A stretch of DNA of 64,000 nt from an uncultured Gammaproteobacteria bacterium (GCA_964634875.1 CAZWKA010000003.1:85928-149927), one strand, 5' to 3'. Counted from the stretch's first letter, positions 1,351 to 49,417 are shown. Notes: generated by a model from the sequence alone, not told the origin. Numbers and translations: made by a program.

Positions 1351-2151
1351 ATGCCTATCACTGATCAAAAATTGGTAATTTCTGGGAATATAGTCGAGCA
1401 TGATTCTTATCGGATTAGCACTTTTTACGGCACCACTAATAGGAAGAAATCTAAAGGTCATAAAACAGGTCTGTCTACTTCTCGTGAAAATGAGTTGAAA
1501 TCGGCTTATCGTGCTAAATCTACTGTTAGGCATCTCGTTAATGCGAATGCCTCTAGGTGGTATAAGCCAGATGGCTCACCCTGTCTTCCTATTTTTATTA
1601 CACTTACGTTTGAAGCTGATGTCCGTGATCTTGCTGTTGCGAATGAGATGTTTACTAGTTTCATTCAAAGGCTCAATTATTATATTGAAGGTGTTAAAAA
1701 GAATATCCTGCGCTATTTAGTTGTTCCTGAGTTTCAGGATGAGAATCGTGGTGGAGTGATACACTATCATGTTCTATTTTTTAACCTTCCGTATATCGTT
1801 ATGGTTTATGATGAAATGCGTAAAATTTGGAGTAAGGGTAATATCAATGTTAAGTCTGTACGTCGTGTTAAAGACCTGGGGAAGTATCTGACAAAGTATA
1901 TGGTCAAGAGTATGCATGACGGAAGGCTGAAAGGTAGGAAGAAGTATTTTACAAGCAAGAGTCTTTTTAAACCGCATGTCTATCGCGACCCAGCCGTAGT
2001 TGGTTTAATTATTACATCATTACCAAAAAATGCTGCTATTTCAACCTTTTCTTGGGAAAACGAGTATAGAGGGACGATTACTAGAACTATTTATAATTTG
2101 AATGAAAGTCCTGAAGCACTTGATAAGTTTAGAGGCTTAGTGGTAGATTAG
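1351..2151 (+). CDS. HUH-superfamily rolling-circle replication initiator (Rep)
   Basis: Three Rep motifs in canonical order: FITLTF (motif I), HYHVLFF (HUH motif II), YLTKYMVK (catalytic Tyr motif III). Confidence 0.7.
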   Translation: MPITDQKLVISGNIVEHDSYRISTFYGTTNRKKSKGHKTGLSTSRENELKSAYRAKSTVRHLVNANASRWYKPDGSPCLPIFITLTFEADVRDLAVANEMFTSFIQRLNYYIEGVKKNILRYLVVPEFQDENRGGVIHYHVLFFNLPYIVMVYDEMRKIWSKGNINVKSVRRVKDLGKYLTKYMVKSMHDGRLKGRKKYFTSKSLFKPHVYRDPAVVGLIITSLPKNAAISTFSWENEYRGTITRTIYNLNESPEALDKFRGLVVD

Positions 2152-2168
2152 CCCCAATTAAAACCATT

Positions 2169-3662
2169 ATGAAATATATTGCTTACGCCCGTAAATCAAC
2201 AGAATCTGACGATCGACAGGTTTTATCCATTGAATCGCAGTTTAATGAAGTGAAGCGCCTTGTAGAGCGTGATGGTATTATTTTAGATGAAGTATTCTCC
2301 GAGAATAAATCGGCTAAAGCTCCTGGGCGTCCAGAATTTCAGAAAATGCTTAAATTCATCCAGAAAAATAAATGCACTATTTACGCTTGGAAGCTTGATC
2401 GACTTGCCAGAAACCCAAAGGATGGGGGAGAGCTGTTATGGCAAATGGATGAGGGTCAACTTTATGAGATAAGAACATTTGATCGATCGTACTCCAATAA
2501 GGCGGATGAAAAGTTCATGATGAATCTAGAGTTTGGAATGGCTAAAAAATATGTCGATGATCTGAGTGTTAATGTTCGCCGTGGTTTTCGTGCCAAGCTT
2601 GAGCGCGGTGAGTGGCCATATATGCCTCCGTTCGGGTATTCTTTTGATCCTGCTTCCCACTTGGTTGTTCTTAATTCTCAACAGGGTCAATTTATTACTG
2701 AAATGTTTAGATTGTATGCTTCTGGTAGTTATGGTATCCGCGAGCTTTCGCAAATCATGTACGAAAAAGGTCTGCGTAATAAAAGAGGTACACAGCTTGG
2801 TAAAACTCGTATTCACTGTATTCTATCAAATCCTTTTTATTATGGAATGATGGTAAAGGATGGGGTGCATTATCCTGGTAAGCATGAAGTTTTAATAACT
2901 AAGGAAATTTTTGATCAAGTACAGGAAGTTATAGGTGGTCGCTATAAAGCTCGGCCAAAAAAACAATTCTTTACGCACCGTGGATTTATGAATTGTCATG
3001 TTTGCGGTTGTGCGCTGACAGCTACGCTTAAAAAAGGACATGCTTACTACTATTGTACCAATGGTAAAAACATTTGCGACCAGCATAAGAAATATCTACG
3101 TTCTGAAGTGGTTGATGGAATGATGGGTGATATTTTGGGGCAGGTACAGTTTGATGAAGAAATGGTTGAAATTATGTACTTGGCAGCCAAAGAGAAGATT
3201 GGACTTAATGAAGAGTATGCCTTCTCCGCTATTCAGAACCTTAAAAAACAGCTTGATTTGACCCTTAGGAAGCAGGAGAGGCTTGTGAACAGCTATTTGG
3301 ACGGTTCAACCCCTGAAACAGTCTATAAGCCCCTTGTGCAATCTTTAGGTAATGAAATTGTTGCAACTCGGCAGCAGATCAAAAAAATGGAAGAAAAACA
3401 AACAGGGGAGACTAATACTTTGGAACTTACTAAAGAGTACTTTTTAACCGCAAGCAGAGCGAAAAAAGAATTTTTGAGTAAGGATGATGTGGGAAAACGA
3501 ACTATAGTAGAAAAACTACTTTGGAACCTTACGATTGAAAATAAAATTTTGGCTACGTATAAACTAAAAGAGCCCTTCCAATATATGGTAGGGGCTCCTC
3601 AGTTTCGAGATATTTCCGCTTGGCGGGTCGGACGGGACTCGAACCCGCAACTTCTGCCGTGA
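2169..3662 (+). CDS. Large serine recombinase (integrase)
   Basis: N-terminal resolvase catalytic motif YARKSTESDDRQVLSIESQ. Recombinase domain. Cys-rich zinc ribbon CHVCGC...YYYCTNGKNIC. C-terminal coiled-coil. The 3' end overlaps the tRNA-Asp 3' end. Confidence 0.85.
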   Translation: MKYIAYARKSTESDDRQVLSIESQFNEVKRLVERDGIILDEVFSENKSAKAPGRPEFQKMLKFIQKNKCTIYAWKLDRLARNPKDGGELLWQMDEGQLYEIRTFDRSYSNKADEKFMMNLEFGMAKKYVDDLSVNVRRGFRAKLERGEWPYMPPFGYSFDPASHLVVLNSQQGQFITEMFRLYASGSYGIRELSQIMYEKGLRNKRGTQLGKTRIHCILSNPFYYGMMVKDGVHYPGKHEVLITKEIFDQVQEVIGGRYKARPKKQFFTHRGFMNCHVCGCALTATLKKGHAYYYCTNGKNICDQHKKYLRSEVVDGMMGDILGQVQFDEEMVEIMYLAAKEKIGLNEEYAFSAIQNLKKQLDLTLRKQERLVNSYLDGSTPETVYKPLVQSLGNEIVATRQQIKKMEEKQTGETNTLELTKEYFLTASRAKKEFLSKDDVGKRTIVEKLLWNLTIENKILATYKLKEPFQYMVGAPQFRDISAWRVGRDSNPQLLP

Positions 3663-3696
3663 CAGGGCAGTGCTCTAACCATTGAACTACCGACCC
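3621..3696 (-). tRNA. tRNA-Asp (anticodon GTC), CCA encoded
   Basis: The reverse complement folds as a cloverleaf. Acceptor GGGTCGG/CCGACCC, anticodon stem CTGCC/GGCAG with loop CTGTCAC, T-loop TTCGAGT, discriminator G plus CCA. Confidence 0.85.
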
Positions 3697-20000: not shown

Positions 20001-20675
20001 ACGGTTGTGGCTGCGTTCCATCCGCAAAAAGAACATGATTGGGGAGTTGATTCAAAAGCAGAAGCTCCGGTTGAAGCCCGTGCTCCTCGTGTTAGTTCCC
20101 GCGCCCTAGAAACTGCAGCTGGTTCAGAAGCTGCCCAGGGTGGATGGGGGATGGATGCGCAAACAGCGGAAAGGAATTTGAGTAGAATGGAAGCGGCTCT
20201 CGAGCGTTCGATTAATGGAGTTGACCTTACCGGCGCCGGTTTTTCCAAGAATCGTATTATGGATGCTTTTGCGGCTTGGCGTGACCGGGTGAGCGGTGCG
20301 ATTGAAGATGGAAAGCCGCTTGATGCGGGAGTTAAGGCCAGTGCCACCGAAGCACTGCAACGGTTTAATGTTTCTAGTAAAGATACTGAAGCTCTTGGGT
20401 TTGCGATTTTTGATGCTGATCCTAAGCTGCATAGTGTCGCACGAGAAATTAGTTTGATTATGGCACCTAAAGATCCTAATGTGGGTTTTGCGGCTAATGG
20501 TAGCCGCGGGGTCTGTGTCTTTGACCGGTCAGCCGGTACTTGGCAGTTTTCGACCTATTCAGACAAGCTTTTCTCAATGAGCGGCGGAAGATTGGTTAAA
20601 GCTGACCTCCAGGGCAATATAGAAAAGGTCTATGAAGACCCCCAAGCCTTTTTAGAAGTTCAGCGAGAAGAGTAA
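17076..20675 (+). CDS. Giant protein (1199 aa) with tandem DARDTAPHTPVF repeats
   Basis: 3.6 kb ORF containing four to five peptide repeats and a Pro-rich spacer. Confidence 0.65.
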   Translation: MASPEKKLITPEFKLHVQLVKELNEGDRSDQHLQALFELNERFKSVKDVMKDLRRLLKEWGAIHDQKEGLPPRELNQAIAEYAKKVVALENELLELEAEEKEVEEAWWKEQQATIKSLVAQKDPRHTAKDIQKRRDLKNATFEALALFKKNQEGQASQSDLHEYGRFKRQVIDSLAELAPRVQTDELDEAVDARDTQPNPVVPDVASEPKPVDARDTAPHTPVMDDEPDARDTAPHTPVFNDTNPDARDTAPHTPVFDDPDARNTAPHTPVFAEPPAPPKKKGFWGRIKEVFSSKEVQKKAAKTILYDVPMRALGAKAVFDWIGASPLAAARVAEMVGGEKLKNKVKGYVGEGRGDVAAYYKGGREAEEELEQLQPQIDEVVLALGRDMKERRAQDTDAELRVQAKLDTLQHMIAGAKNIAPAERAVLFESLTDIVTSYGEAQKTAEAALLKKTQALLERHVRNQANKLALVRDGVNAILTAAGLPMVRAVAYAGMSAYEAVRRVSLERKGGAAGESKKDAAKRYASTVGTAARESFNALLFRGRKNEGSVAQRGIEGVAAWGQALSVFGISVQALDGHAPTSSEGFQSLINAIKERGAEGALDQMGSNIAQNADRVANIPATFARGVGHAYDAGHTAVDYVTGTSHDTSRLLDGAPEFSFNNFAQENHLSKPEGDFLAGLLKYPSLRNNPEVFQNILKLSDAGNHNGVAERILGDVKMYTFKAMVDAGAGKEELAGFVRDQHFSSRHLEHLKGVHLGSKPSAEKIAEALQAAMGKKSSGVYDVFKAKATSEYQHALAQKHGDHLRLRGNDLRLYGFDKDGNPILGGKGTATLLHRSGGSHGVLQAGKSSVSSAQAVEAYAKQLGYADPEAYEVYKDNDALDDAGDMSPPASWKLAGSSSAAESIRHLEEMFAMEDPQAYALYQAGKENGGLEDFDTSTLVASRTDMVPSSSGSVTAEAMQRAPAAEALRTTPRETVVAAFHPQKEHDWGVDSKAEAPVEARAPRVSSRALETAAGSEAAQGGWGMDAQTAERNLSRMEAALERSINGVDLTGAGFSKNRIMDAFAAWRDRVSGAIEDGKPLDAGVKASATEALQRFNVSSKDTEALGFAIFDADPKLHSVAREISLIMAPKDPNVGFAANGSRGVCVFDRSAGTWQFSTYSDKLFSMSGGRLVKADLQGNIEKVYEDPQAFLEVQREE
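17649..17895 (+). repeat. In-frame tandem repeat (about 39-45 nt unit) encoding DARDTAPHTPV(F/M)DD
   Basis: Repeated GATGCCCGTGA(T/C)ACTGCTCC(A/T)CA(C/T)ACACCAGT units are visible in the sequence. Confidence 0.7.
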
Positions 20676-20723
20676 GATTGATGGTTTTTATCGAATTAGC
20701 GCTCTTGCCCTCAGTATATATAA

Positions 20724-20762
20724 AAAACACCTTACCACCCTCGTGGAAGGTGTTTTTATTTT
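20724..20762. terminator. Bidirectional intrinsic terminator closing the long operon
   Basis: AAAAACACCTT-loop-AAGGTGTTTTT with flanking A and T tracts. Confidence 0.7.
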
Positions 20763-20853
20763 ATTTAGATCTGGTAAAGAGTTTGGGTGGGGTTGTGAAG
20801 TAGCAAAAAAAGCCTTATTTTAGCCAAAAAACTGTTTTTACGCGCTGCAGCCC

Positions 20854-20882
20854 TTGACAAAACCCAAAAAGTATGCTATAGT
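20854..20882 (+). promoter_or_regulatory. Near-consensus sigma70 promoter facing the GC-rich island
   Basis: TTGACA, 17 nt spacer, TATAGT. Confidence 0.55.
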
Positions 20883-20997
20883 ATGTCGTTACCTCAAAAA
20901 GAGACTAGTATACGTAAGAGAGACGTATCCTAGACACCGGCCCAAATTGATGCTATATCCTCTCTACACTTAGGGAGTTTTTTTAAAACCAACGCGT

Positions 20998-21165
20998 TCT
21001 TTACAATATCACACTATTCTACACTGCTTCTGAAAGAAGACAGGACATCTTTCTCTTGAATCTACTATAGATTGAAGAAAGAAACGCCCTGTCTTCGGAC
21101 AGCAAGCACCAACTTGATCCCCACGCCGGGGATTGCTACGGATCACTGAGACAAAGGAGCCGCCC
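20998..21165 (+). promoter_or_regulatory. Structured leader 1: TCTTTACAA box, then a long imperfect hairpin plus an ATCCCC/GGGGAT hairpin, then an SD
   Basis: AAGACAGGACAT...CCCTGTCTT hairpin. CTGTC-TTCG-GACAG tetraloop. CCCCACGCCGGGG hairpin. AGGAG SD 7 nt before the ATG. Confidence 0.5.
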
Positions 21166-21612
21166 ATGAACGCTTCCAAGATTGCCCTCGGTTTCGCCGC
21201 CCTCGCCATCGCCCTCAGCACCGGCTGCAGCGGCACCCCGTTCTCCGGCAGCAGCGGCATCGACGCCGGCCGCAGCCTCAGCCGGAGCACGACGACGGAG
21301 ATCGACACCACCACCACCGTCGTCGACGGTCCCGCCTTCACCAAGGCGGACAGGGCGCTCCTCGCCCGGCTGCGCACCACGGTCTACGGTGGGAAGAAGA
21401 CGGTCGGTCTCGTCCGCCGCGTCGACTACCTCGAGTACAGGACCGGGCACAAGGCCGACCTCGACGCCCTGGCCGAGATGGACGCGCGCACCAAGCTCGC
21501 CCAGATCGAGGCCCGCCGCGCCACCAAGGCCCCCAAGCTCGCCCAGAACGACGGCGGCACGGTCAACGTGCTCGTCCGCACCCCCGCGGACGCCACGGTC
21601 GAGAAGCGGTAG
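21166..21612 (+). CDS. Lipoprotein (148 aa), GC-rich
   Basis: Start MNASKIALGFAALAIALSTGCSG (lipobox) with a good SD. GC3-rich codons. The ORF-track start at 21133 is upstream of the SD. Confidence 0.6.
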   Translation: MNASKIALGFAALAIALSTGCSGTPFSGSSGIDAGRSLSRSTTTEIDTTTTVVDGPAFTKADRALLARLRTTVYGGKKTVGLVRRVDYLEYRTGHKADLDALAEMDARTKLAQIEARRATKAPKLAQNDGGTVNVLVRTPADATVEKR

Positions 21613-21793
21613 CTACGGCTGCCGTTGGTATAGGATAGTGTGAAGGTCGCCCGCGCATATTGGCGCGGGGGATCGAGCGACCGGGAGTCATACGTAGAGG
21701 TTGGCGATATAATCGCCGACCGCTCGAGACTCCTGGTCGACCTCGCTTTTTCTTCAGCATTACGATGATGCAGAAAAAGTGAGTGAAGTTGCT

Positions 21794-21924
21794 CTTTACA
21801 AACGCAAGACAGGACATTTTTAACTTCAATATCGTTGAAGTAAGAAACGCCCTGTCTTGCGAAAAACAGATTGGTCCCCACGCAGGGACTGTAACGGCTC
21901 ACTGACAGAATGAAGGAGTCCATC
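21794..21924 (+). promoter_or_regulatory. Structured leader 2, paralogous to leader 1
   Basis: Same TCTTTACAA box. AAGACAGGACAT...CCCTGTCTT stems with a different but still complementary inner hairpin. GTCCC/GGGAC hairpin. CACTGA and AAGGAG elements conserved. Confidence 0.5.
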
Positions 21925-22578
21925 ATGAAGGCCATCCGCACGCTCTCCCTCATCGCCGCCGCTCTCGTCCTCACCGCTGGCATCGCCCGCGCGGACGATG
22001 CGGGCATGAAGACCACGGTCATCAAGTGCACGAAGGCGGAGATCGCCGCCGGGACCTGCACGATCGACGTGACCCTGCCCACCCCGGCGCCCCCCGTCGT
22101 CGTGGCTCCCTCCGAGCCGCCCCCCCCGCCCCCCCCCCCCCCCCCCGGCGGGGGCCCCCCCCCGCCCCTCGGCGCCCCCCCCCCCCCCGCGCACCACCCC
22201 CCCCCGAGCCGCCCCCGCCGCCCCTCGCCCCGCCCCCGGTCGTCGTCACCCCCGAGCCGATCGTCGCCCCGCCCCGCCTCGCGAACAGCCCCGCCCTGCA
22301 GAAGGCCTTCACCCAGACGGCTGAGGAGCACAAGGGCCTCAGCCGCCAGGCCAAGCTCGGGATCGGCTTCGGTGTCGGCGGCGCGGTCCTCGCTGGTGTC
22401 GCGGTCGGCCTCATCGTGTGGCACGTCACCAACGACGGCCTCTACCAGATCAAGCCGCCGATCACCGTGGCGCCCAACGCCCTGACGAACCTCGGCAGCG
22501 GCCCCCTCCGGCTCTCCGGCGCGTCCGTCACCCCGATCCCCGGCGGTGCGGTTCTCTCCGCGGCTCTCGTCTTCTAGA
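21925..22578 (+). CDS. Signal-peptide, proline-rich, C-terminally membrane-anchored protein. The reading frame shifts within the poly-C tracts (frameshifted or phase-variable).
   Basis: Frame 1 (from 21925) encodes a signal peptide, a domain, then poly-Pro. A different frame (22026 track) carries poly-Pro, PPVVVTPEPIV, a TM helix (LGIGFGVGGAVLAGVAVGLIVW), and ends at 22578. The two frames are joined only through the C12-C17 homopolymers. Confidence 0.5.
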
Positions 22579-22694
22579 CCCCCTTCCTCACATGAGGAGC
22601 AGCTCCCGGTTCCTACCGGTCGAAGCTCGCTCCTCGCCCTTTCAACAACGATGAAACTTTCGTGGTTGTTGAAAGGGTTGAAAGACCCACAAGT

Positions 22695-22805
22695 TCTTTA
22701 CAACAGGTTCGGGAAATTTTAACTGCCTAAGTACTATAGGCAAGTGGAATGTCCCGAACCGACAATGTCCCAGCCTAAGAACTGGGCCAAAACCTGGAGA
22801 AGTGC
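22695..22805 (+). promoter_or_regulatory. Structured leader 3 (TCTTTACAA box plus GTTCGGGA...TCCCGAAC hairpin plus CCCAG/CTGGG hairpin)
   Basis: Shares the box and two-hairpin architecture with leaders 1 and 2. Contains AATGTCCC twice. Confidence 0.45.
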
Positions 22806-23795
22806 ATGAACACGATGACTCGCGGTTTGCTTGTCCTTTGTCTCGCCCTCGCCGCCGCGTGCGGCCCCGACCGCACCCTCTGCGCCCCGGGCGCCGAGGC
22901 GATCCTCGCCGTCGGCAACAACACCACCGATTCCCACGGCTTCCTCTGCGGCTGCGACAGCACCTCCGAGTGCGTCGCGGGCCAGCGGTGCGGGTGGTCC
23001 TCCGACTACAAGCGCAACGTCTGCTCCGACAACCTGCTCCAGTCCCTGCCCCCCGGGAGCAATCCCTGCAGCCTGAACAATGGCGGCTGCCGGTCGGACG
23101 AGACCTGCGTCTACAACACCGCCCTGAACTCGGTGTCCTGCACGCCGCCGCCCAAGCCCCAGTGCAACATCACCTGCGGCGCGGGCCAGAAGGCGGCCAC
23201 GAACGCCAACGGGGGCTGCTTCTGCGCCCCGACCTGCGAGGGCGTGGTGTGCGGCGCGGGCCAGACCTGCCAGCTCAACTTCGACCGCGGCCTGTGCGTG
23301 AGCAACTGCCGCGCCCCCTACGTCGAGTGCGGCGGATCCTGTGTCCTGACCCAGCTCAACAACAGCCACTGCGGCGGCTGCGGGAACATCTGCGGCCCCG
23401 GCTCGACCTGCCAGGGCGGCACCTGCCAGCAGATCCCGGCCCCCCAGGATGTGACCTGCCATGGGATGCGGTTCACGCTGGCCCAGGGCACGAACACGAA
23501 CACCACGGCGCGCGAGTGCCGCGGCTACGACATCCGCGGCGACCAGGCCTGGTCCATCGCCCCGCCGACCCCCGGCACCGAGACCAGCGCTCCCAACGGC
23601 ATCTGCGCCGCGACCTGCCTCTCGCAGGCCGGCACCGAGACGGTCGTCCCGGCCAACGGCAGCGCGATCTGGATCCCCGGTGGCAACCAGGACGTCCCGC
23701 GCTACACGCGCCCCGGCTGCCCGCGCCTCCGCTGGCACCCGGTCGGCGACCCCTTCGGCGCCGGCTTCGCGTGGGACGCCTTCTGCGAGCAGTAG
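22806..23795 (+). CDS. Cysteine-rich secreted lipoprotein with EGF-like and CxxGQxC repeats
   Basis: Signal peptide plus lipobox LAAAC. Repeated C-x-x-G-(A/Q)-G-Q-x-C units and a CSLNNGGCRSDETC EGF-like module. GC3-rich. The antisense 334 aa ORF is judged spurious. Confidence 0.65.
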   Translation: MNTMTRGLLVLCLALAAACGPDRTLCAPGAEAILAVGNNTTDSHGFLCGCDSTSECVAGQRCGWSSDYKRNVCSDNLLQSLPPGSNPCSLNNGGCRSDETCVYNTALNSVSCTPPPKPQCNITCGAGQKAATNANGGCFCAPTCEGVVCGAGQTCQLNFDRGLCVSNCRAPYVECGGSCVLTQLNNSHCGGCGNICGPGSTCQGGTCQQIPAPQDVTCHGMRFTLAQGTNTNTTARECRGYDIRGDQAWSIAPPTPGTETSAPNGICAATCLSQAGTETVVPANGSAIWIPGGNQDVPRYTRPGCPRLRWHPVGDPFGAGFAWDAFCEQ

Positions 23796-23833
23796 GCTCG
23801 ACCTAGCTCTCGGCTTCTAGCCGATTGAGCAAG

Positions 23834-23863
23834 GGGCGGGCACACTTCACCGTGTGCCCGCCC
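23834..23863 (+). terminator. GC-rich hairpin (12 bp perfect stem) ending the island
   Basis: GGGCGGGCACAC-ttcacc-GTGTGCCCGCCC. No T-tract follows. Confidence 0.45.
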
Positions 23864-24052
23864 GACCCCTTATCCTGATCATGAACAAAACGTTCGTGGC
23901 AAGAATAAGAGGAAAGAAAATAAAAAAATAATCTTTCAACAATTACTTCTGACGCAGAAATAGTTGTTGGCAGATTACGTACTTCGGTACTAATCCACCA
24001 ACCCAAAAATTCCGCCTATCTCTCTGGGTGGATTTTTGTTTATGGACCAGTA

Positions 24053-24084
24053 CTAAGCAAAGTAGGCAGAGTAAGCAGATTAAG
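24053..24084. repeat. Short palindromic repeat family, copy A (left arm flanking the 4HB gene)
   Basis: AGCAAAGTAGGCAGAGTAAGCAG. Inverted partner at 24463-24500. Related copies at 29411-29480 and 41377-41410. Confidence 0.7.
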
Positions 24085-24463
24085 TTTTGTTTTGTGGAAG
24101 ATAGCTTCTTTGTACTTGGATCCAGCGTGTGAGGAGTTTTCCGACTTCCTCGCAAAGTTGTAGGGCAGAATCGTGCTCTGCTTTTTTTATATATTCCAGA
24201 TCTTTGGCTAAAAGAAAGTGGTATTTTGTCTCTTCAAGAGATGCGTCAGCAATATTATAAAAATGAAGACTGTCGCGTAAATTTCTTCTTCTAAAACCCT
24301 CAACTATATTAGTAGGTACCGAAGCTGCAGACCGCCGCACTTGGCTAGTCAATCCAAATAATTCTGTTTTTGGGAAATCGCTAGTTAGTTTATAAACTAA
24401 AAGAACCAAGGTATGTGCTTTCTGCCAAACTTGTAAATCCCGAAAAATTTTGATTGTCGCCAT
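24080..24463 (-). CDS. Four-helix-bundle protein (TIGR02436 family; 23S-rRNA intervening-sequence protein / DGR Avd-like)
   Basis: Family signature ...LTSDFPKTELFGLTSQVRRSAASVPTNIVEGF... within a 127 aa protein. Confidence 0.8.
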   Translation of the reverse strand: MATIKIFRDLQVWQKAHTLVLLVYKLTSDFPKTELFGLTSQVRRSAASVPTNIVEGFRRRNLRDSLHFYNIADASLEETKYHFLLAKDLEYIKKAEHDSALQLCEEVGKLLTRWIQVQRSYLPQNKT

Positions 24464-48343: not shown

Positions 48344-48845
48344 TTAGTATCTACTTACACTATGAGTCATGAAACTCCAGGTGCCGATGGCGTTGTCTTC
48401 GATAAGCTTATTATGAGCGAAAGCCGGAAGCAAAAACAGATGGGGGAAATAATGAGTCTCGCTATGCAGCACTACAAAGGGCGTGATTTACGCCAAGATA
48501 ACGAGAGTGGAAAAGTGTATATTCAAACAGACCAAGGTGAAAAAGAGCTCTATTTGGAAGAAGGAAAAATTTGGATGCGCTAGTTTTTTAAAAAAGTGCA
48601 TAAAGGCCTTGACAAAAGGTCTTTTTGGTACTATACTTTTGGCGTCTTTGAAAAAAGATAGAATCGTTCTTTACATAAGAAATGGAGAAGCAGGGCTCCC
48701 TGTTTGTGAGCGTTCCTGAATACGAAGAAAGACAGTCAAGTGTGGCTATTTTTCTCTGTATACGGGAGCTCCCCGGAGCTTAAAGCCCTTAATTCGGGCT
48801 TTCCCTACTTCACATTTCTTCAAGCACAAAAGGAGATCATCCTCA

Positions 48846-49417
48846 TGCGGACGCATGTCTTTGCTGGTGTCCTAGCGTTGTTCGCCCTTTTTGGCGGGTC
48901 TGCATTTGCGGCGTGTCACGAGACGAACGAGCATCACGCAAGGTTTGAGGTTTCGCTCAGCATGGGCGGGACTGTCTGGTTCAATCATTCACCGGAGGCA
49001 ACATTTGGCCTTGTTGTGGGTCACGCTGTCAGCCGCGATGGTTGTTGGTGGTTGCGGGGCGCGGTTGAGCTGTACAAGCCTATCGGAATTCATGCGCCTG
49101 GCCTAGCGGGAATCGTCTCGCTTACCAGACGCGTGCACCGCCTCGCTGAAGTTGGCTTCATGGCTACGGCTCTCATGCCGTTGTCGAGGGACGCTTACCA
49201 TAATCTTATGGGAGCCGACCATTCGTCGCGCGAACACCCGATTCTTGCGGGAGGACCGCAATTGAGGGTGTGGCCCGGACCGCTCTTCCCAACCGCTGTA
49301 ATCAGCCCACTGCTTGGGTATGGGCTTGGCAAGGCAGTGGTTGCTGGCGTTTCAGTTGAGTTTGAGTTCGACATTACCGGCCTCTTCACGGGGCGTTCTG
49401 TACACCCTAGGCCGTGA
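48846..49417 (+). CDS. GC-rich secreted protein (signal peptide MRTHVFAGVLALFALFGGSAFAA)
   Basis: Segment GC about 58%. Flanked by GGGAGCTCCCC-type palindromes. Confidence 0.45.

What the first reader, a model, noticed from the sequence alone, without database searches (positions are those of the whole stretch)
20998..22805. Paralogous structured 5' leaders with compensatory base changes precede all three island genes
Leaders 1 and 2 share TCTTTACAA, then AAGACAGGACAT, then an inner hairpin, then AAGAAACGCCCTGTCTT, then CCCCACGC-N-GGG(A/G), then ACGG, CACTGA and AGGAG. In both, the inner hairpin sequence differs but stays self-complementary. Leader 1 has CTTTCTCTTGAATC/GATTGAAGAAAG. Leader 2 has ACTTCAAT/TTGAAGT. 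The small hairpin co-varies: ATCCCC/GGGGAT versus GTCCC/GGGAC. Leader 1 also contains a CTGTC-UUCG-GACAG tetraloop hairpin. Leader 3 keeps the TCTTTACAA box and a two-hairpin layout (GTTCGGGA...TCCCGAAC; CCCAG/CTGGG), and repeats AATGTCCC, the reverse complement of the GGACAT in leaders 1 and 2. Covariation argues for a functional RNA structure (cis-regulatory leader, riboswitch-like or processing element) or a protein operator with conserved half-sites. Integron attC sites were considered but do not fit (see rejected).
Basis: seen in the sequence. Interest (0 to 1): 0.7.

Follow-up and report, generated by a model that had tools for sequence, protein, structure and literature searches.

The report
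BoxA antitermination leaders before island genes
Each GC-rich secreted-protein gene in this island of an AT-rich candidate-phyla (Magasanikbacteria-like) bacterium is preceded by a structured RNA leader whose one invariant element matches boxA, the NusB/NusE loading site that makes RNA polymerase termination-resistant on ribosomal RNA operons and phage lambda, so the cell probably uses rRNA-type antitermination to express compositionally foreign-looking genes.

Summary
Three leaders (20996-21165, 21791-21924, 22693-22805) carry G(C/T)TCTTTACAA followed by stable, partly covarying hairpins (z -4 to -5.8).

The box is not a promoter -35 hexamer, an attC site or a riboswitch. It matches boxA: E. 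coli rrn UGCUCUUUA, consensus GYTCTTTAANA. Leader 2 reads tGCTCTTTACAA.

Five related genomes (Wzy 46-83% identical) carry a 60-74% GC island at the same locus with different secreted-protein genes. In 16 of 19 genes the leader has this box, or a one- or two-base variant, between two stem-loops. Everything else in the leaders has diverged.

The 11-mer occurs 12 times in the islands, always on the sense strand, and never in about 134 kb outside. It also lies 102-143 nt upstream of 16S genes in about 10 metagenomic lineages.

A conserved sigma-70 promoter (20854-20882) lies upstream, so the box and hairpins should be transcribed.

Most likely mechanism (inferred): NusB/NusE-nucleated antitermination protects C-rich, codon-mismatched genes (GC3 0.94-0.96) from Rho-dependent polarity. 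The hairpins may be processing or shielding elements.

No binding or expression data exist, and the organism's own rrn boxA, nusB and rho could not be checked.

The parts
20854..20882 (+). Sigma-70-type promoter TTGACA-17-TATAGT with TG-extended -10. It is the only promoter-like site on the + strand of the island.
   Evidence: 11/12 match. Homologous promoters TTGACAAAA..TATAGT/TATACT/TATTAT stand at the head of the islands in L003, L004, L005 and L007.
20883..20984 (+). Promoter-proximal transcribed segment ending in the terminator-like hairpin CTCTCT-acactt-AGGGAG plus T7 (20960-20984). An upstream AGAGAGA could pair with CTCTCT, making this a possible attenuator.
   Evidence: The same GAGAGAG...CTCTCTC-loop-GAGG-U-run design occurs behind the first promoter in L004, L005 and L007.
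20996..21006 (+). boxA-like element 1, GTTCTTTACAA
   Evidence: Matches GYTCTTTA core (PMC5725501; PMC2724277).
21036..21096 (+). Leader 1 main hairpin: 29-nt arms, conserved base AAGACAGG/CCTGTCTT, variable apex. An alternative UUCG hairpin lies at 21089-21102.
21116..21134 (+). Leader 1 small GC hairpin (ATCCCC/GGGGAT). SD AGGAG follows at 21155-21159.
21166..21612 (+). Gene 1: 148-aa lipoprotein (LSTGC lipobox), GC 0.71, GC3 0.96. No homologs found.
21648..21783 (+). Trailer hairpins after gene 1: GC-rich hairpins at 21648-21745, then an AT-rich stem-loop at 21742-21783 that ends 7 nt upstream of box 2.
   Evidence: (I15)
21791..21801 (+). boxA-like element 2, GCTCTTTACAA. With the preceding T it reads UGCUCUUUA, the exact E. 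coli rrn boxA.
21803..21861 (+). Leader 2 main hairpin (27-nt arms, about 25 bp)
21874..21890 (+). Leader 2 small GC hairpin (GTCCC/GGGAC). SD AAGGAG follows at 21913-21918.
21925..22577 (+). Gene 2: signal peptide, Pro-rich region, TM segment and conserved C-terminus. The reading frame changes inside poly-C tracts (about 22117-22200).
22594..22677 (+). Trailer hairpins after gene 2: covarying GC-rich hairpin 22594-22635, then sequence-conserved stem-loop CCCTTTCAACAAC..GTTGTTGAAAGGG at 22637-22677, ending 15 nt upstream of box 3.
   Evidence: (I8)
22693..22703 (+). boxA-like element 3, GTTCTTTACAA (the ortholog in L001 is GTTCCTTACAA)
22706..22760 (+). Leader 3 main hairpin (21 bp), with compensatory changes against L001
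22769..22786 (+). Leader 3 small hairpin CCCAG/CTGGG. SD GGAG follows at 22796-22799.
22806..23795 (+). Gene 3: 329-aa Cys-rich lipoprotein, GC3 0.96. It is 58% identical to P0001 on L001, and its C-terminal domain is shared with island proteins of L005 and L007.
23806..24040 (+). Trailer hairpins after gene 3 (23806-23830, conserved in L001; 23833-23863; 23870-23915), then the intrinsic terminator 24011-24032 plus T-run that ends the unit.

Best explanation
Each leader is an rRNA-operon/lambda-nut-like antitermination module written into the mRNA.

Module layout: a stem-loop, then a single-stranded boxA (G-Y-U-C-U-U-U-A-C-A-A), then a 21-27 bp AT-rich hairpin, one or more smaller GC-richer hairpins, and the Shine-Dalgarno sequence.

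Proposed sequence of events:
1. Transcription starts at the conserved sigma-70 promoter (20854-20882) and runs through all three genes to the terminator at about 24011-24040.
2. As each boxA emerges it is bound by NusB/NusE(S10). Together with NusA and NusG this converts RNA polymerase into a termination-resistant, faster complex.
3. That protection is needed because the island genes are 71-73% GC and C-rich (40-43% C), with GC3 of 0.94-0.96, in a host whose genes have GC3 of 0.41-0.59. Such transcripts should be slowly translated and good Rho substrates.
4. They are also followed by GC-rich hairpins that could pause or stop polymerase.
5. The long hairpin after boxA most likely keeps the untranslated spacer structured, which makes it a poor Rho loading site, and/or is an RNase III-type processing site. 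Cleavage there would separate the Nus-tethered boxA from the ribosome-binding site, as in the lambda N leader.

Shown here: the sequence match, position, strand, conservation, structure and covariation.

Inferred: Nus binding, antitermination as the outcome, involvement of Rho, and processing.
For: 1. Sequence. The E. coli rrn boxA is 5'-UGCUCUUUA-3', lambda boxA is CGCUCUUA, and rrn boxA-spacer is ugcucuuuaacaauuua (PMC2724277). The gamma-proteobacterial consensus is GYTCTTTAANA (PMC5725501). NusB-NusE recognises 8 nt (PMC3177189). The three window boxes are GTTCTTTACAA, tGCTCTTTACAA and GTTCTTTACAA. That is 8/8 of the core and 10/11 of the consensus.

2. Phylogenetic footprint.
- All five relatives found through the neighbouring Wzy gene have a GC-rich island at the same place.
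- 16 of 19 GC-rich genes there, and on L001, have the box 113-338 nt upstream of the ATG.
- The variants are GTTCTTTTCAA, GCTCTTTGAAA, TTTCTTTGAAA, GTTATTTACAA and GTTCCTTACAA.
- The rest of the leaders cannot be aligned between genomes.

3. Specificity. The 11-mer GYTCTTTACAA occurs 12 times in the islands, always on the sense strand in a leader, including in L003 where the gene block is inverted. It occurs 0 times in about 134 kb of flanking DNA on both strands.

4. rrn usage. A metagenome scan for TCTTTACAA 91-151 nt upstream of the 16S 5' end gave 39 loci. Fourteen of them, about 10 of about 20 distinct lineages, carry the full GYTCTTTACAA at -102 to -143. That is the classical rrn leader boxA position (-147 to -133 in E. 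coli; PMC10250234). A GY prefix is expected by chance in about 12%.

5. Context.
- A stem-loop ends 3-20 nt upstream of every boxA, and a hairpin follows it. This resembles rrn boxB-boxA-boxC and lambda boxA-boxB.
- The box lies in the linker between the two stem-loops, with mean unpaired probability 0.55 against 0.37 for the region.

6. Transcription. The box lies downstream of a conserved consensus promoter. No other + strand promoter or intrinsic terminator lies between the genes.

7. RNA-level structure. One-sided changes in the orthologous trio all pass through G-U pairs on the sense strand.

8. Rationale. BoxA-mediated protection of non-rRNA transcripts (CRISPR arrays) from Rho has precedent (PMC7665894). 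So does boxA about 200 nt upstream of lambda N with a highly structured intervening leader (PMC5725501).

9. A second site. GTTCTTTACAT at 48666, behind its own promoter, precedes another GC-elevated signal-peptide gene.
Against: - There is no experimental or expression evidence of any kind.
- The organism's own rRNA leader could not be retrieved, so it is unknown whether its NusB/NusE recognise this sequence. [quoted passage not shown]
- nusB, nusE, nusG and rho are not in the 64-kb window. Their presence in this lineage is assumed.
- The motif differs from the E. coli rrn site by one missing A (UUUACAA against UUUAACAA).
- The 16S-leader scan had no scrambled-motif control. Many of its 39 hits may be chance, and only the GY-prefix enrichment is informative.
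- Three GC-rich genes lack a recognisable box: L5a, L7d, and the promoter-proximal gQ genes of L003 and L004.
- The distance from box to hairpin varies from 1 to about 37 nt, and is about 100 nt in L007. This is unlike the fixed lambda boxA-boxB spacing.
- Nus complexes at boxA can also repress, as at suhB and lambda N, so the sign of the effect is not determined.
- Comparison of sense and antisense folding energy is inconclusive.
- The pyrimidine-rich box can also pair with the SD in many MFE folds, which offers a Nus-independent reading.
Confidence: 0.6

Rival explanations
1. The box is a genuine boxA but works the other way. The Nus complex tethered to boxA loops the nascent RNA, blocks ribosome access to the SD, and so promotes Rho termination, as in suhB autoregulation and lambda N repression. 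This would keep the island genes low or conditional, with hairpin cleavage by RNase III relieving the block.
For: suhB and lambda N precedents, including repression from about 200 nt away through a highly structured leader (PMC5725501). The box lies 113-338 nt upstream of the SD with structured RNA in between.
Against: A box is repeated in front of every gene of a polycistronic unit. That layout fits re-loading of an antitermination complex (rrn has two sets) better than gene-by-gene repression. In the suhB series repression weakened with distance. Without antitermination, C-rich poorly translated genes would hardly be expressed at all.
Confidence: 0.15
2. Nus-independent cis-acting RNA. The pyrimidine-rich box is an anti-SD that pairs with the ribosome-binding site and closes the whole leader, giving translational control or a thermosensor. 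Alternatively the box-plus-hairpin is an endonuclease processing site whose 5' hairpin stabilises each monocistronic mRNA.
For: In most MFE folds GUUCUUU/GCUCUUU pairs with AAGGAG/GGAGAAC around the SD. The leaders are strongly structured. The 21-27 bp stems are in the size range of RNase III substrates (established knowledge). Hairpins also follow every ORF.
Against: No covariation links box variants to SD-flank variants (sequences). Any pyrimidine run pairs with an SD. Anti-SD pairing does not explain invariance of the ACAA half or of the leading G-Y. It also does not explain the same 11-mer upstream of 16S genes. Nuclease sites are normally far less sequence-specific.
Confidence: 0.15
3. 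DNA-level element. The box and hairpins mark cassette boundaries or recombination sites, in the manner of integron attC, IS200/IS605 TTAC-plus-hairpin ends, or the Mycoplasma vis/vrs sites that shuffle surface-lipoprotein genes.
For: Gene content of the island differs between close relatives. The gene block is inverted in L003, with a box copy at the junction. The box contains TTAC. L007 units share an identical trailer, leader and signal-peptide block.
Against: - No RYYYAAC/GTTRRRY pairs.
- No integrase, TnpA or invertase within about 17 kb. The only recombinase is a serine recombinase at 2169-3662, beside a tRNA.
- Arrays are unidirectional.
- The box always follows gene orientation.
- Hairpins at the two ends of a unit are unrelated.
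- One-sided substitutions preserve G-U pairs on the sense strand only.
- The L007 block looks like gene conversion between paralogs rather than site-specific exchange.
Confidence: 0.05
4. TTTACA is the -35 hexamer of a separate promoter for each gene, or the hairpins are palindromic operators.
For: TTTACA matches TTGACA at 5/6 positions. Hairpins are inverted repeats in DNA.
Against: No -10-like hexamer lies 16-18 nt downstream in the 17 leaders. Hairpin sequences are not conserved, only their pairing is. A true consensus promoter already lies upstream.
Confidence: 0.03

Closest known systems
E. coli rrn antiterminator (boxB-boxA-boxC) and the rrnTAC
   Same: The core sequence is identical (UGCUCUUUA in leader 2). 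It is a stem-loop followed by a single-stranded boxA and further structure. The element is repeated within one transcription unit (leader plus spacer in rrn; one per gene here). The same 11-mer lies at the rrn leader position in about 10 metagenomic lineages.
   Different: It sits in front of protein-coding genes. It has one A fewer (UUUACAA). No boxC-like sequence or leader-trailer helix was found. It occurs three or four times per operon.
Phage lambda nutL / N-gene leader
   Same: boxA is followed by a hairpin. boxA lies about 100-300 nt upstream of the first start codon with a highly structured intervening leader, which in lambda holds an RNase III site.
   Different: There is no N-like protein and no GNRA-type boxB loop. 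Spacing from boxA to hairpin is variable. The element is chromosomal and conserved across the lineage, not phage-borne.
[quoted passage not shown]
   Same: These are non-rRNA uses of boxA to control Rho termination of a transcript that is untranslated or poorly translated.
   Different: Those cases have a single boxA per locus, at most 80 nt from the target. Here there is one per gene, embedded in 230-340-nt structured intercistronic modules, and the targets are translated secreted-protein genes of aberrant composition.
Integron attC sites
   Same: Imperfect 55-65-nt palindromes between promoterless genes, with a conserved base and a variable apex.
   Different: The R''/R' core sites are absent. 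There is no integrase. The conserved element is a linear box outside the hairpin. Strand-specific G-U pairing points to RNA.
Tandem lipoprotein paralog clusters with conserved intergenic units (S. aureus lpl; Mycoplasma vsp/vpma families)
   Same: Arrays of surface or lipoprotein genes in which the 3' end, the intergenic region and the 5' signal-peptide region evolve as one homogenised block (L007; title and abstract of PMC2568036; the Mycoplasma systems are from my own knowledge).
   Different: No adjacent recombinase and no bidirectional gene arrangement. The extreme GC contrast and the boxA are not features of those systems.

Membership tests
boxA (NusB/NusE-binding) antitermination element | Sequence matching the boxA core and consensus (UGCUCUUUA; GYTCTTTAANA) | tested here: met
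   8/8 of the core and 10/11 of the consensus in all three window leaders. Leader 2 is an exact UGCUCUUUA.
boxA (NusB/NusE-binding) antitermination element | Lies on the sense strand in untranslated, transcribed RNA downstream of a promoter | tested here: met
   All 12 exact copies are on the sense strand and intergenic. A conserved consensus promoter lies upstream. The transcription start is predicted, not measured.
boxA (NusB/NusE-binding) antitermination element | Single-stranded presentation next to a stem-loop (boxB-like) | tested here: met
   Stem-loops lie on both sides. The box has an unpaired probability of 0.55 against a regional mean of 0.37.
boxA (NusB/NusE-binding) antitermination element | The same motif is used in the organism's own rRNA operon leader and spacer | not testable with these tools
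Indirect evidence: the 11-mer lies at -102 to -143 of 16S in about 10 other lineages.
boxA (NusB/NusE-binding) antitermination element | NusB/NusE binding and Nus-dependent read-through; nusB, nusE (and rho) present in the genome | not testable with these tools
   None of these genes lies in the 64-kb window.
Integron attC | R'' RYYYAAC and R' GTTRRRY flanking a 50-140-nt imperfect palindrome; IntI nearby or a CALIN-type array | tested here: not met
   Zero matches on either strand of 20601-24100. No tyrosine recombinase was found among the ORFs scanned.
Riboswitch or other curated RNA family (Rfam 15) | Covariance-model match | tested here: not met
   Nothing at gathering score in the window or in five related loci. 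Only noise at E<=10 in 20650-24100.
IS200/IS605-type ends (TTAC target plus subterminal hairpins) | tnpA/tnpB gene; similar hairpins at both ends; fixed distance from cleavage site to hairpin | tested here: not met
   No transposase (Pfam calls). The 5' and 3' hairpins are unrelated. The TTAC-to-hairpin distance is 3-31 nt within the window.
Sigma-70 promoter (-35 TTTACA) | A -10 hexamer 16-18 nt downstream | tested here: not met
   The scan finds only the 20854-20882 promoter on the + strand. No -10 was seen on inspection of 17 leaders.
Site-specific inversion systems of surface-lipoprotein families (Mycoplasma vis/vrs type) | Adjacent recombinase; genes in both orientations; one expression site | tested here: not met
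   Arrays are unidirectional in all six genomes. No adjacent recombinase. L004 has a promoter on each gene.

The most novel reading that the evidence does not exclude
This Magasanikbacteria clade keeps a dedicated, fast-evolving array of secreted and surface-protein genes at one chromosomal locus. Over deep divergence (neighbouring Wzy down to 46% identity) these genes are held at GC3 of 0.8-0.99 inside 38-47% GC genomes. They can be expressed only because each gene carries an rRNA-type boxA antitermination module. The compositional contrast would then be maintained actively. Possible causes are GC-biased gene conversion among paralogs, continual uptake from a GC-rich host, or selection on the mRNA. 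The boxA modules would be the adaptation that lets a reduced-genome episymbiont run a compositionally foreign gene set for host interaction.
Probability: 0.2. Interest if true: 0.85.

Novelty: new variant of a known kind. Interest (0 to 1): 0.62.

Why it matters
BoxA and Nus-factor antitermination is classically a feature of rRNA operons and lambdoid phages. Only recently has it been shown for a few other targets, such as suhB and CRISPR arrays.

Here a boxA is built into a repeated intercistronic module in front of every gene of a protein-coding array, in a candidate-phyla-radiation bacterium, and the genes differ sharply from their host in composition. If confirmed, this would have three consequences:
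1. It would extend Nus-dependent control to a large uncultured radiation.
2. It would give a concrete mechanism by which a cell can express C-rich, codon-mismatched genes that Rho would otherwise silence.
3. It would flag a conserved, rapidly diversifying GC-rich secretome island as a likely host-interaction locus.

The box is also a simple, searchable marker (GYTCTTTACAA between two stem-loops) for finding such gene sets in other genomes.

Tried and rejected
- **Rfam:** run at gathering and at E<=10 on the island, and at gathering on five related loci. Nothing relevant.
- **Exact-pattern scans, leader 1/2 hairpin base** (AGACAGGACAT..AACGCCCTGTCT): 0 hits in genome and viral contigs.
- **Exact-pattern scans, sequence-conserved trailer hairpin** (CAACAACGATGAA..CGTGGTTGTTG): 0 hits in metagenome and viral contigs.
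- **Protein homolog searches:** gene 1 and the gene-2 C-terminus gave none. Gene 3 gave one close homolog (P0001), which supplied the only orthologous leader (L001).
- **Exact-protein look-ups** of genes 1 and 3: not on record. The neighbouring IVP protein gave L002, an independent assembly with the identical island/flank junction, which argues against a chimera.
- **attC regex:** 0 hits.
- **-35 promoter reading:** no -10 hexamer.
- **IS200/IS605 reading** (TTAC plus hairpin): no transposase, unrelated end hairpins, variable spacing.
- **Leader-trailer helix around each ORF** (suggested by inverted repeat I22, 21009-21024 / 21628-21643): duplex energies were no better than shuffles in 17 cassettes (z -1.6 to +2.1). 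Rejected as chance.
- **Sense versus antisense folding energy** as an RNA/DNA discriminator: mixed and uninformative.
- **Covariation between box variants and SD flanks:** none seen.
- **AlphaFold2 model of gene 3** from a 2-sequence alignment: pLDDT 43, unusable, so no fold search was run.
- **Pfam** on island proteins of all genomes: almost nothing, only Stig1-like Cys repeats and one Big_9/cadherin domain.
- **Literature:** Arnvig et al. 2008 (boxA across phyla) is not held in the library. Searches found no paper on GC-rich islands in Magasanikbacteria or CPR, and nothing on Nus or Rho in CPR.
Full report
**1. Setting**

The window is about 45% GC. The exception is 21150-23800, which is 60-70% GC with reversed GC skew.

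That stretch holds three + strand ORFs with signal or lipoprotein signal peptides:
- gene 1, 21166-21612
- gene 2, 21925-22577, with a frame change inside poly-C tracts
- gene 3, 22806-23795

Their GC3 is 0.94-0.96 and C content 40-43%. Neighbouring host genes have GC3 of 0.41-0.59. None has a Pfam family.

The flanks are ordinary chromosome: a 1199-aa protein upstream, and downstream a 23S-rRNA-IVP/bAvd-like protein, a Wzy_C O-antigen-ligase-like protein, a GHL15 protein and Mur ligases.

An independent Logan assembly (L002) reproduces the right-hand island/flank junction base for base, so the island is not an assembly chimera.

**2.

The three long hairpins are the top-ranking local inverted repeats. 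All leaders fold much better than dinucleotide shuffles, with z between -4.0 and -5.8.

Leaders 1 and 2 are 77% identical paralogs. They show two two-sided and two one-sided compensatory changes. That is real but statistically thin on its own.

**3. Outside sequences**

Gene 3 has one close homolog among 5.8 billion proteins: P0001, 58% identical. Its 1.7-kb contig, L001, carries the gene-2 C-terminus, the intergenic region and gene 3.

The intergenic region is 66% identical to the window, against 72% for the coding DNA. It keeps every element:
- a GC-rich trailer hairpin, which covaries
- the stem-loop CCTTTCAACAACGATGAA..CGTGGTTGTTGAAAGG, conserved in sequence
- the box, here GTTCCTTACAA
- the main hairpin, with three two-sided and three one-sided changes
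- a small hairpin, which covaries
- GGAG

A search with the neighbouring Wzy protein found five related genomes. Their Wzy identity is 83, 82, 49, 48 and 46%. One is Candidatus Magasanikbacteria RIFOXYD1_FULL_40_23, which places the window in the candidate phyla radiation.

All five have a 60-74% GC island directly beside Wzy, inside genomes of 38-47% GC. These islands carry other sets of signal-peptide and lipoprotein genes, with GC3 0.61-0.99 (only L5d is below 0.77). The proteins share only weak domain-level homology across genomes. For example, the gene-3 C-terminal domain is about 34% identical to those of L005 and L007 proteins, and L3b is 35% identical to L4b.

So the island is an old feature of the whole lineage that evolves fast. 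It is not a recent insertion.

**4. What is conserved in the leaders**

Across 19 GC-rich genes, 16 have G-Y-T-C-T-T-T-A-C-A-A, or a one- or two-base variant, 113-338 nt upstream of the ATG.

All 17 leaders examined are strongly structured, with z from -3.6 to -10. Most have a 21-27 bp AT-rich hairpin beginning 1-37 nt after the box. A stem-loop ends 3-20 nt before it.

Apart from the box, the SD and the promoter, leaders from different genomes cannot be aligned. Orthologous groups can be aligned, however. The trio L5d/L6c/L7d, from three genomes, keeps a 21-bp hairpin and a 5-bp hairpin:
- 97% of cells are paired
- 8 pairs changed on both sides
- 0/500 shuffles reach the observed score
- slid controls give 0-3

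All its one-sided changes pass through G-U on the sense strand. That favours RNA over duplex-DNA recognition.

The exact 11-mer occurs 12 times in the islands. It is always on the sense strand, even in L003 where the gene block is inverted relative to Wzy. It never occurs in about 134 kb of flanking sequence.

**5. Transcription**

The only + strand promoter-like site in 20600-24200 is TTGACA-17-TATAGT at 20854-20882, matching 11/12 positions with a TG extension. The only + strand terminators are at 20960-20984 and 24011-24032.

Homologous promoters head the islands in L003, L004, L005 and L007.

The boxes and hairpins therefore lie inside the predicted transcript. Genes 2 and 3 depend on read-through from gene 1.

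**6. Identification of the box**

The box is not a -35 hexamer, because no -10 follows it. It matches boxA, the RNA site for NusB/NusE(S10):
- E. coli rrn boxA is UGCUCUUUA
- lambda boxA is CGCUCUUA
- rrn boxA-spacer is ugcucuuuaacaauuua (PMC2724277)
- the gamma-proteobacterial consensus is GYTCTTTAANA (PMC5725501)
- NusB-NusE reads 8 nt (PMC3177189)

Leader 2 reads tGCTCTTTACAA. Leaders 1 and 3 read GTTCTTTACAA.

In rrn operons the order is boxB stem-loop, boxA, boxC. The set is repeated before the 23S gene, and boxA alone is necessary and sufficient (PMC10250234). In lambda, boxA is followed by the boxB hairpin. The arrangement here is stem-loop, box, hairpin, repeated once per gene.

As a partial test that this one-A-shorter variant is a natural rrn boxA, I scanned metagenome contigs for TCTTTACAA 91-151 nt upstream of the 16S 5' end. 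The scan gave 39 loci. Fourteen of them, about 10 of about 20 distinct lineages, have the full GYTCTTTACAA at -102 to -143. About 12% would be expected to carry the G-Y prefix by chance. The E. coli boxA lies at -147 to -133.

This scan lacks a scrambled-motif control. The lineages were not classified.

**7. Mechanism proposed**

NusB/NusE bound to each emerging boxA, together with NusA and NusG, would render RNA polymerase termination-resistant through the following gene.

The need is plausible. The genes are C-rich and extremely codon-mismatched, so translation should lag and Rho should load. Each ORF is also followed by GC-rich hairpins.

There are direct precedents:
- BoxA-dependent protection of CRISPR arrays from Rho (PMC7665894).
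- The lambda N leader, where nutL lies about 200 nt upstream of N and the intervening RNA is highly structured and RNase III-sensitive (PMC5725501).

By analogy, the long hairpins may have two roles. They may deny Rho a loading site in the long untranslated spacers. They may also be processing sites that free the ribosome-binding site from the Nus-tethered loop.

All of this is inference. The same literature shows that boxA can also repress, as at suhB and lambda N. That opposite-sign model is my main rival.

**8. Other rivals**

- **Anti-SD pairing.** The box pairs with the SD in many MFE folds. There is no covariation, and the pairing does not explain the ACAA half or the 16S-leader occurrences.
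- **DNA recombination sites.** Gene content varies, L003 has an inversion, and the box contains TTAC. Against this, attC cores are absent, there is no recombinase within about 17 kb, arrays are unidirectional, and the G-U pairs are strand-specific.
- **Leader-trailer helix.** One was suggested by an inverted repeat around gene 1, but it is no better than chance across 17 cassettes.

**9. Limits**

- There is no expression or binding evidence.
- The organism's own rrn leader, nusB and rho are unseen.
- Three GC-rich genes lack the box.
- Box-to-hairpin spacing is variable.
- A structure model of gene 3 failed, with pLDDT 43, so the island proteins remain of unknown function beyond being secreted or surface proteins.

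**10. Verdict**

The finding is real and functional. The specific readings as riboswitch, operator or promoter box are not.

The best-supported identity is a boxA-centred, rrn/nut-like antitermination module placed in front of each gene of a lineage-conserved GC-rich secretome island. This is a new variant of a known mechanism in an unexpected organism and context. My confidence is about 0.6 for the antitermination reading and about 0.75 that the box is a Nus-factor site of some kind.

Noticed in passing
window 21150-23800; L003 11800-15400; L004 12000-15600; L005 12000-17700; L006 7500-12168; L007 11700-12600 and 13800-17700: A 60-74% GC island (GC3 0.61-0.99, nearly all genes 0.77 or higher) of secreted and lipoprotein genes sits beside the Wzy gene in all six related genomes of 38-47% GC. 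Gene content differs and only weak domain homology links the genomes. How such a compositional contrast persists over this divergence is unexplained.
   Followed up: partly
window 20883-20984 (also L004 about 14710-14600, L005 about 17840-17700 and L007 about 17950-17820, all on the - strand): An attenuator-like design lies between the conserved promoter and the first boxA. An upstream GAGAGAG can pair with the CTCTCTC arm of a terminator-like hairpin followed by a U-run. Since boxA lies downstream of it, this could be a separate on/off switch for the whole island.
   Followed up: partly
window 22117-22200: Long poly-C runs (Pro codons) in gene 2 coincide with a change of reading frame between ORFs 21910-22485 and 22026-22577. 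This is either homopolymer sequencing or assembly error, or a slippage-prone, phase-variable tract. The L001 ortholog lacks the expanded Pro region.
   Followed up: no
window 48610-49417: A second boxA-like site, GTTCTTTACAT at 48666, lies just downstream of its own consensus promoter (TTGACA-17-TATACT, 48610-48638). About 180 nt of structured leader follows, upstream of another GC-elevated (0.58) signal-peptide ORF (ATG 48845 to 49417). There is no Pfam family.
   Followed up: partly
window 1351-3696: A Rep (REP_ORF2-G2P) gene and a large serine recombinase (Resolvase plus Recombinase domains) abut tRNA-Asp (3621-3696). This looks like a small integrated element and appears unrelated to the island 17 kb away.
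   Followed up: no
L007 16520-15890 and 15270-14640 (- strand): Two consecutive cassettes share an identical block made of the previous gene's trailer, the boxA leader and the first 20 codons (signal peptide). The mature-protein parts are unrelated. This suggests gene conversion or modular exchange of mature domains, as in the S. aureus lpl tandem lipoprotein clusters.
   Followed up: no
L003 11410-14240: In this close relative the boxA-gene block is inverted relative to Wzy and to the gQ gene. The island promoter is duplicated (11521, 11694). The IVP gene is missing. An extra box copy (agTCTTTACAA, 11498) sits at the junction 14 nt upstream of the first promoter. A run of N follows the block, so a scaffolding effect cannot be excluded.
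   Followed up: no
window 22560-22577; L005 15513; L006 10478; L007 13931: Several island proteins end in an aromatic Phe (..ALVF, ..TGWF, ..LLKF, ..FTRF), the usual C-terminal signature of outer-membrane beta-barrel proteins. This is odd for a lineage thought to lack an outer membrane.
   Followed up: no
window 24080-24463 (- strand): A four-helix-bundle 23S-rRNA-IVP protein with a weaker bAvd-like match lies directly downstream of the island. No reverse transcriptase was seen nearby among the ORFs scanned, so a diversity-generating retroelement link is not supported.
   Followed up: partly
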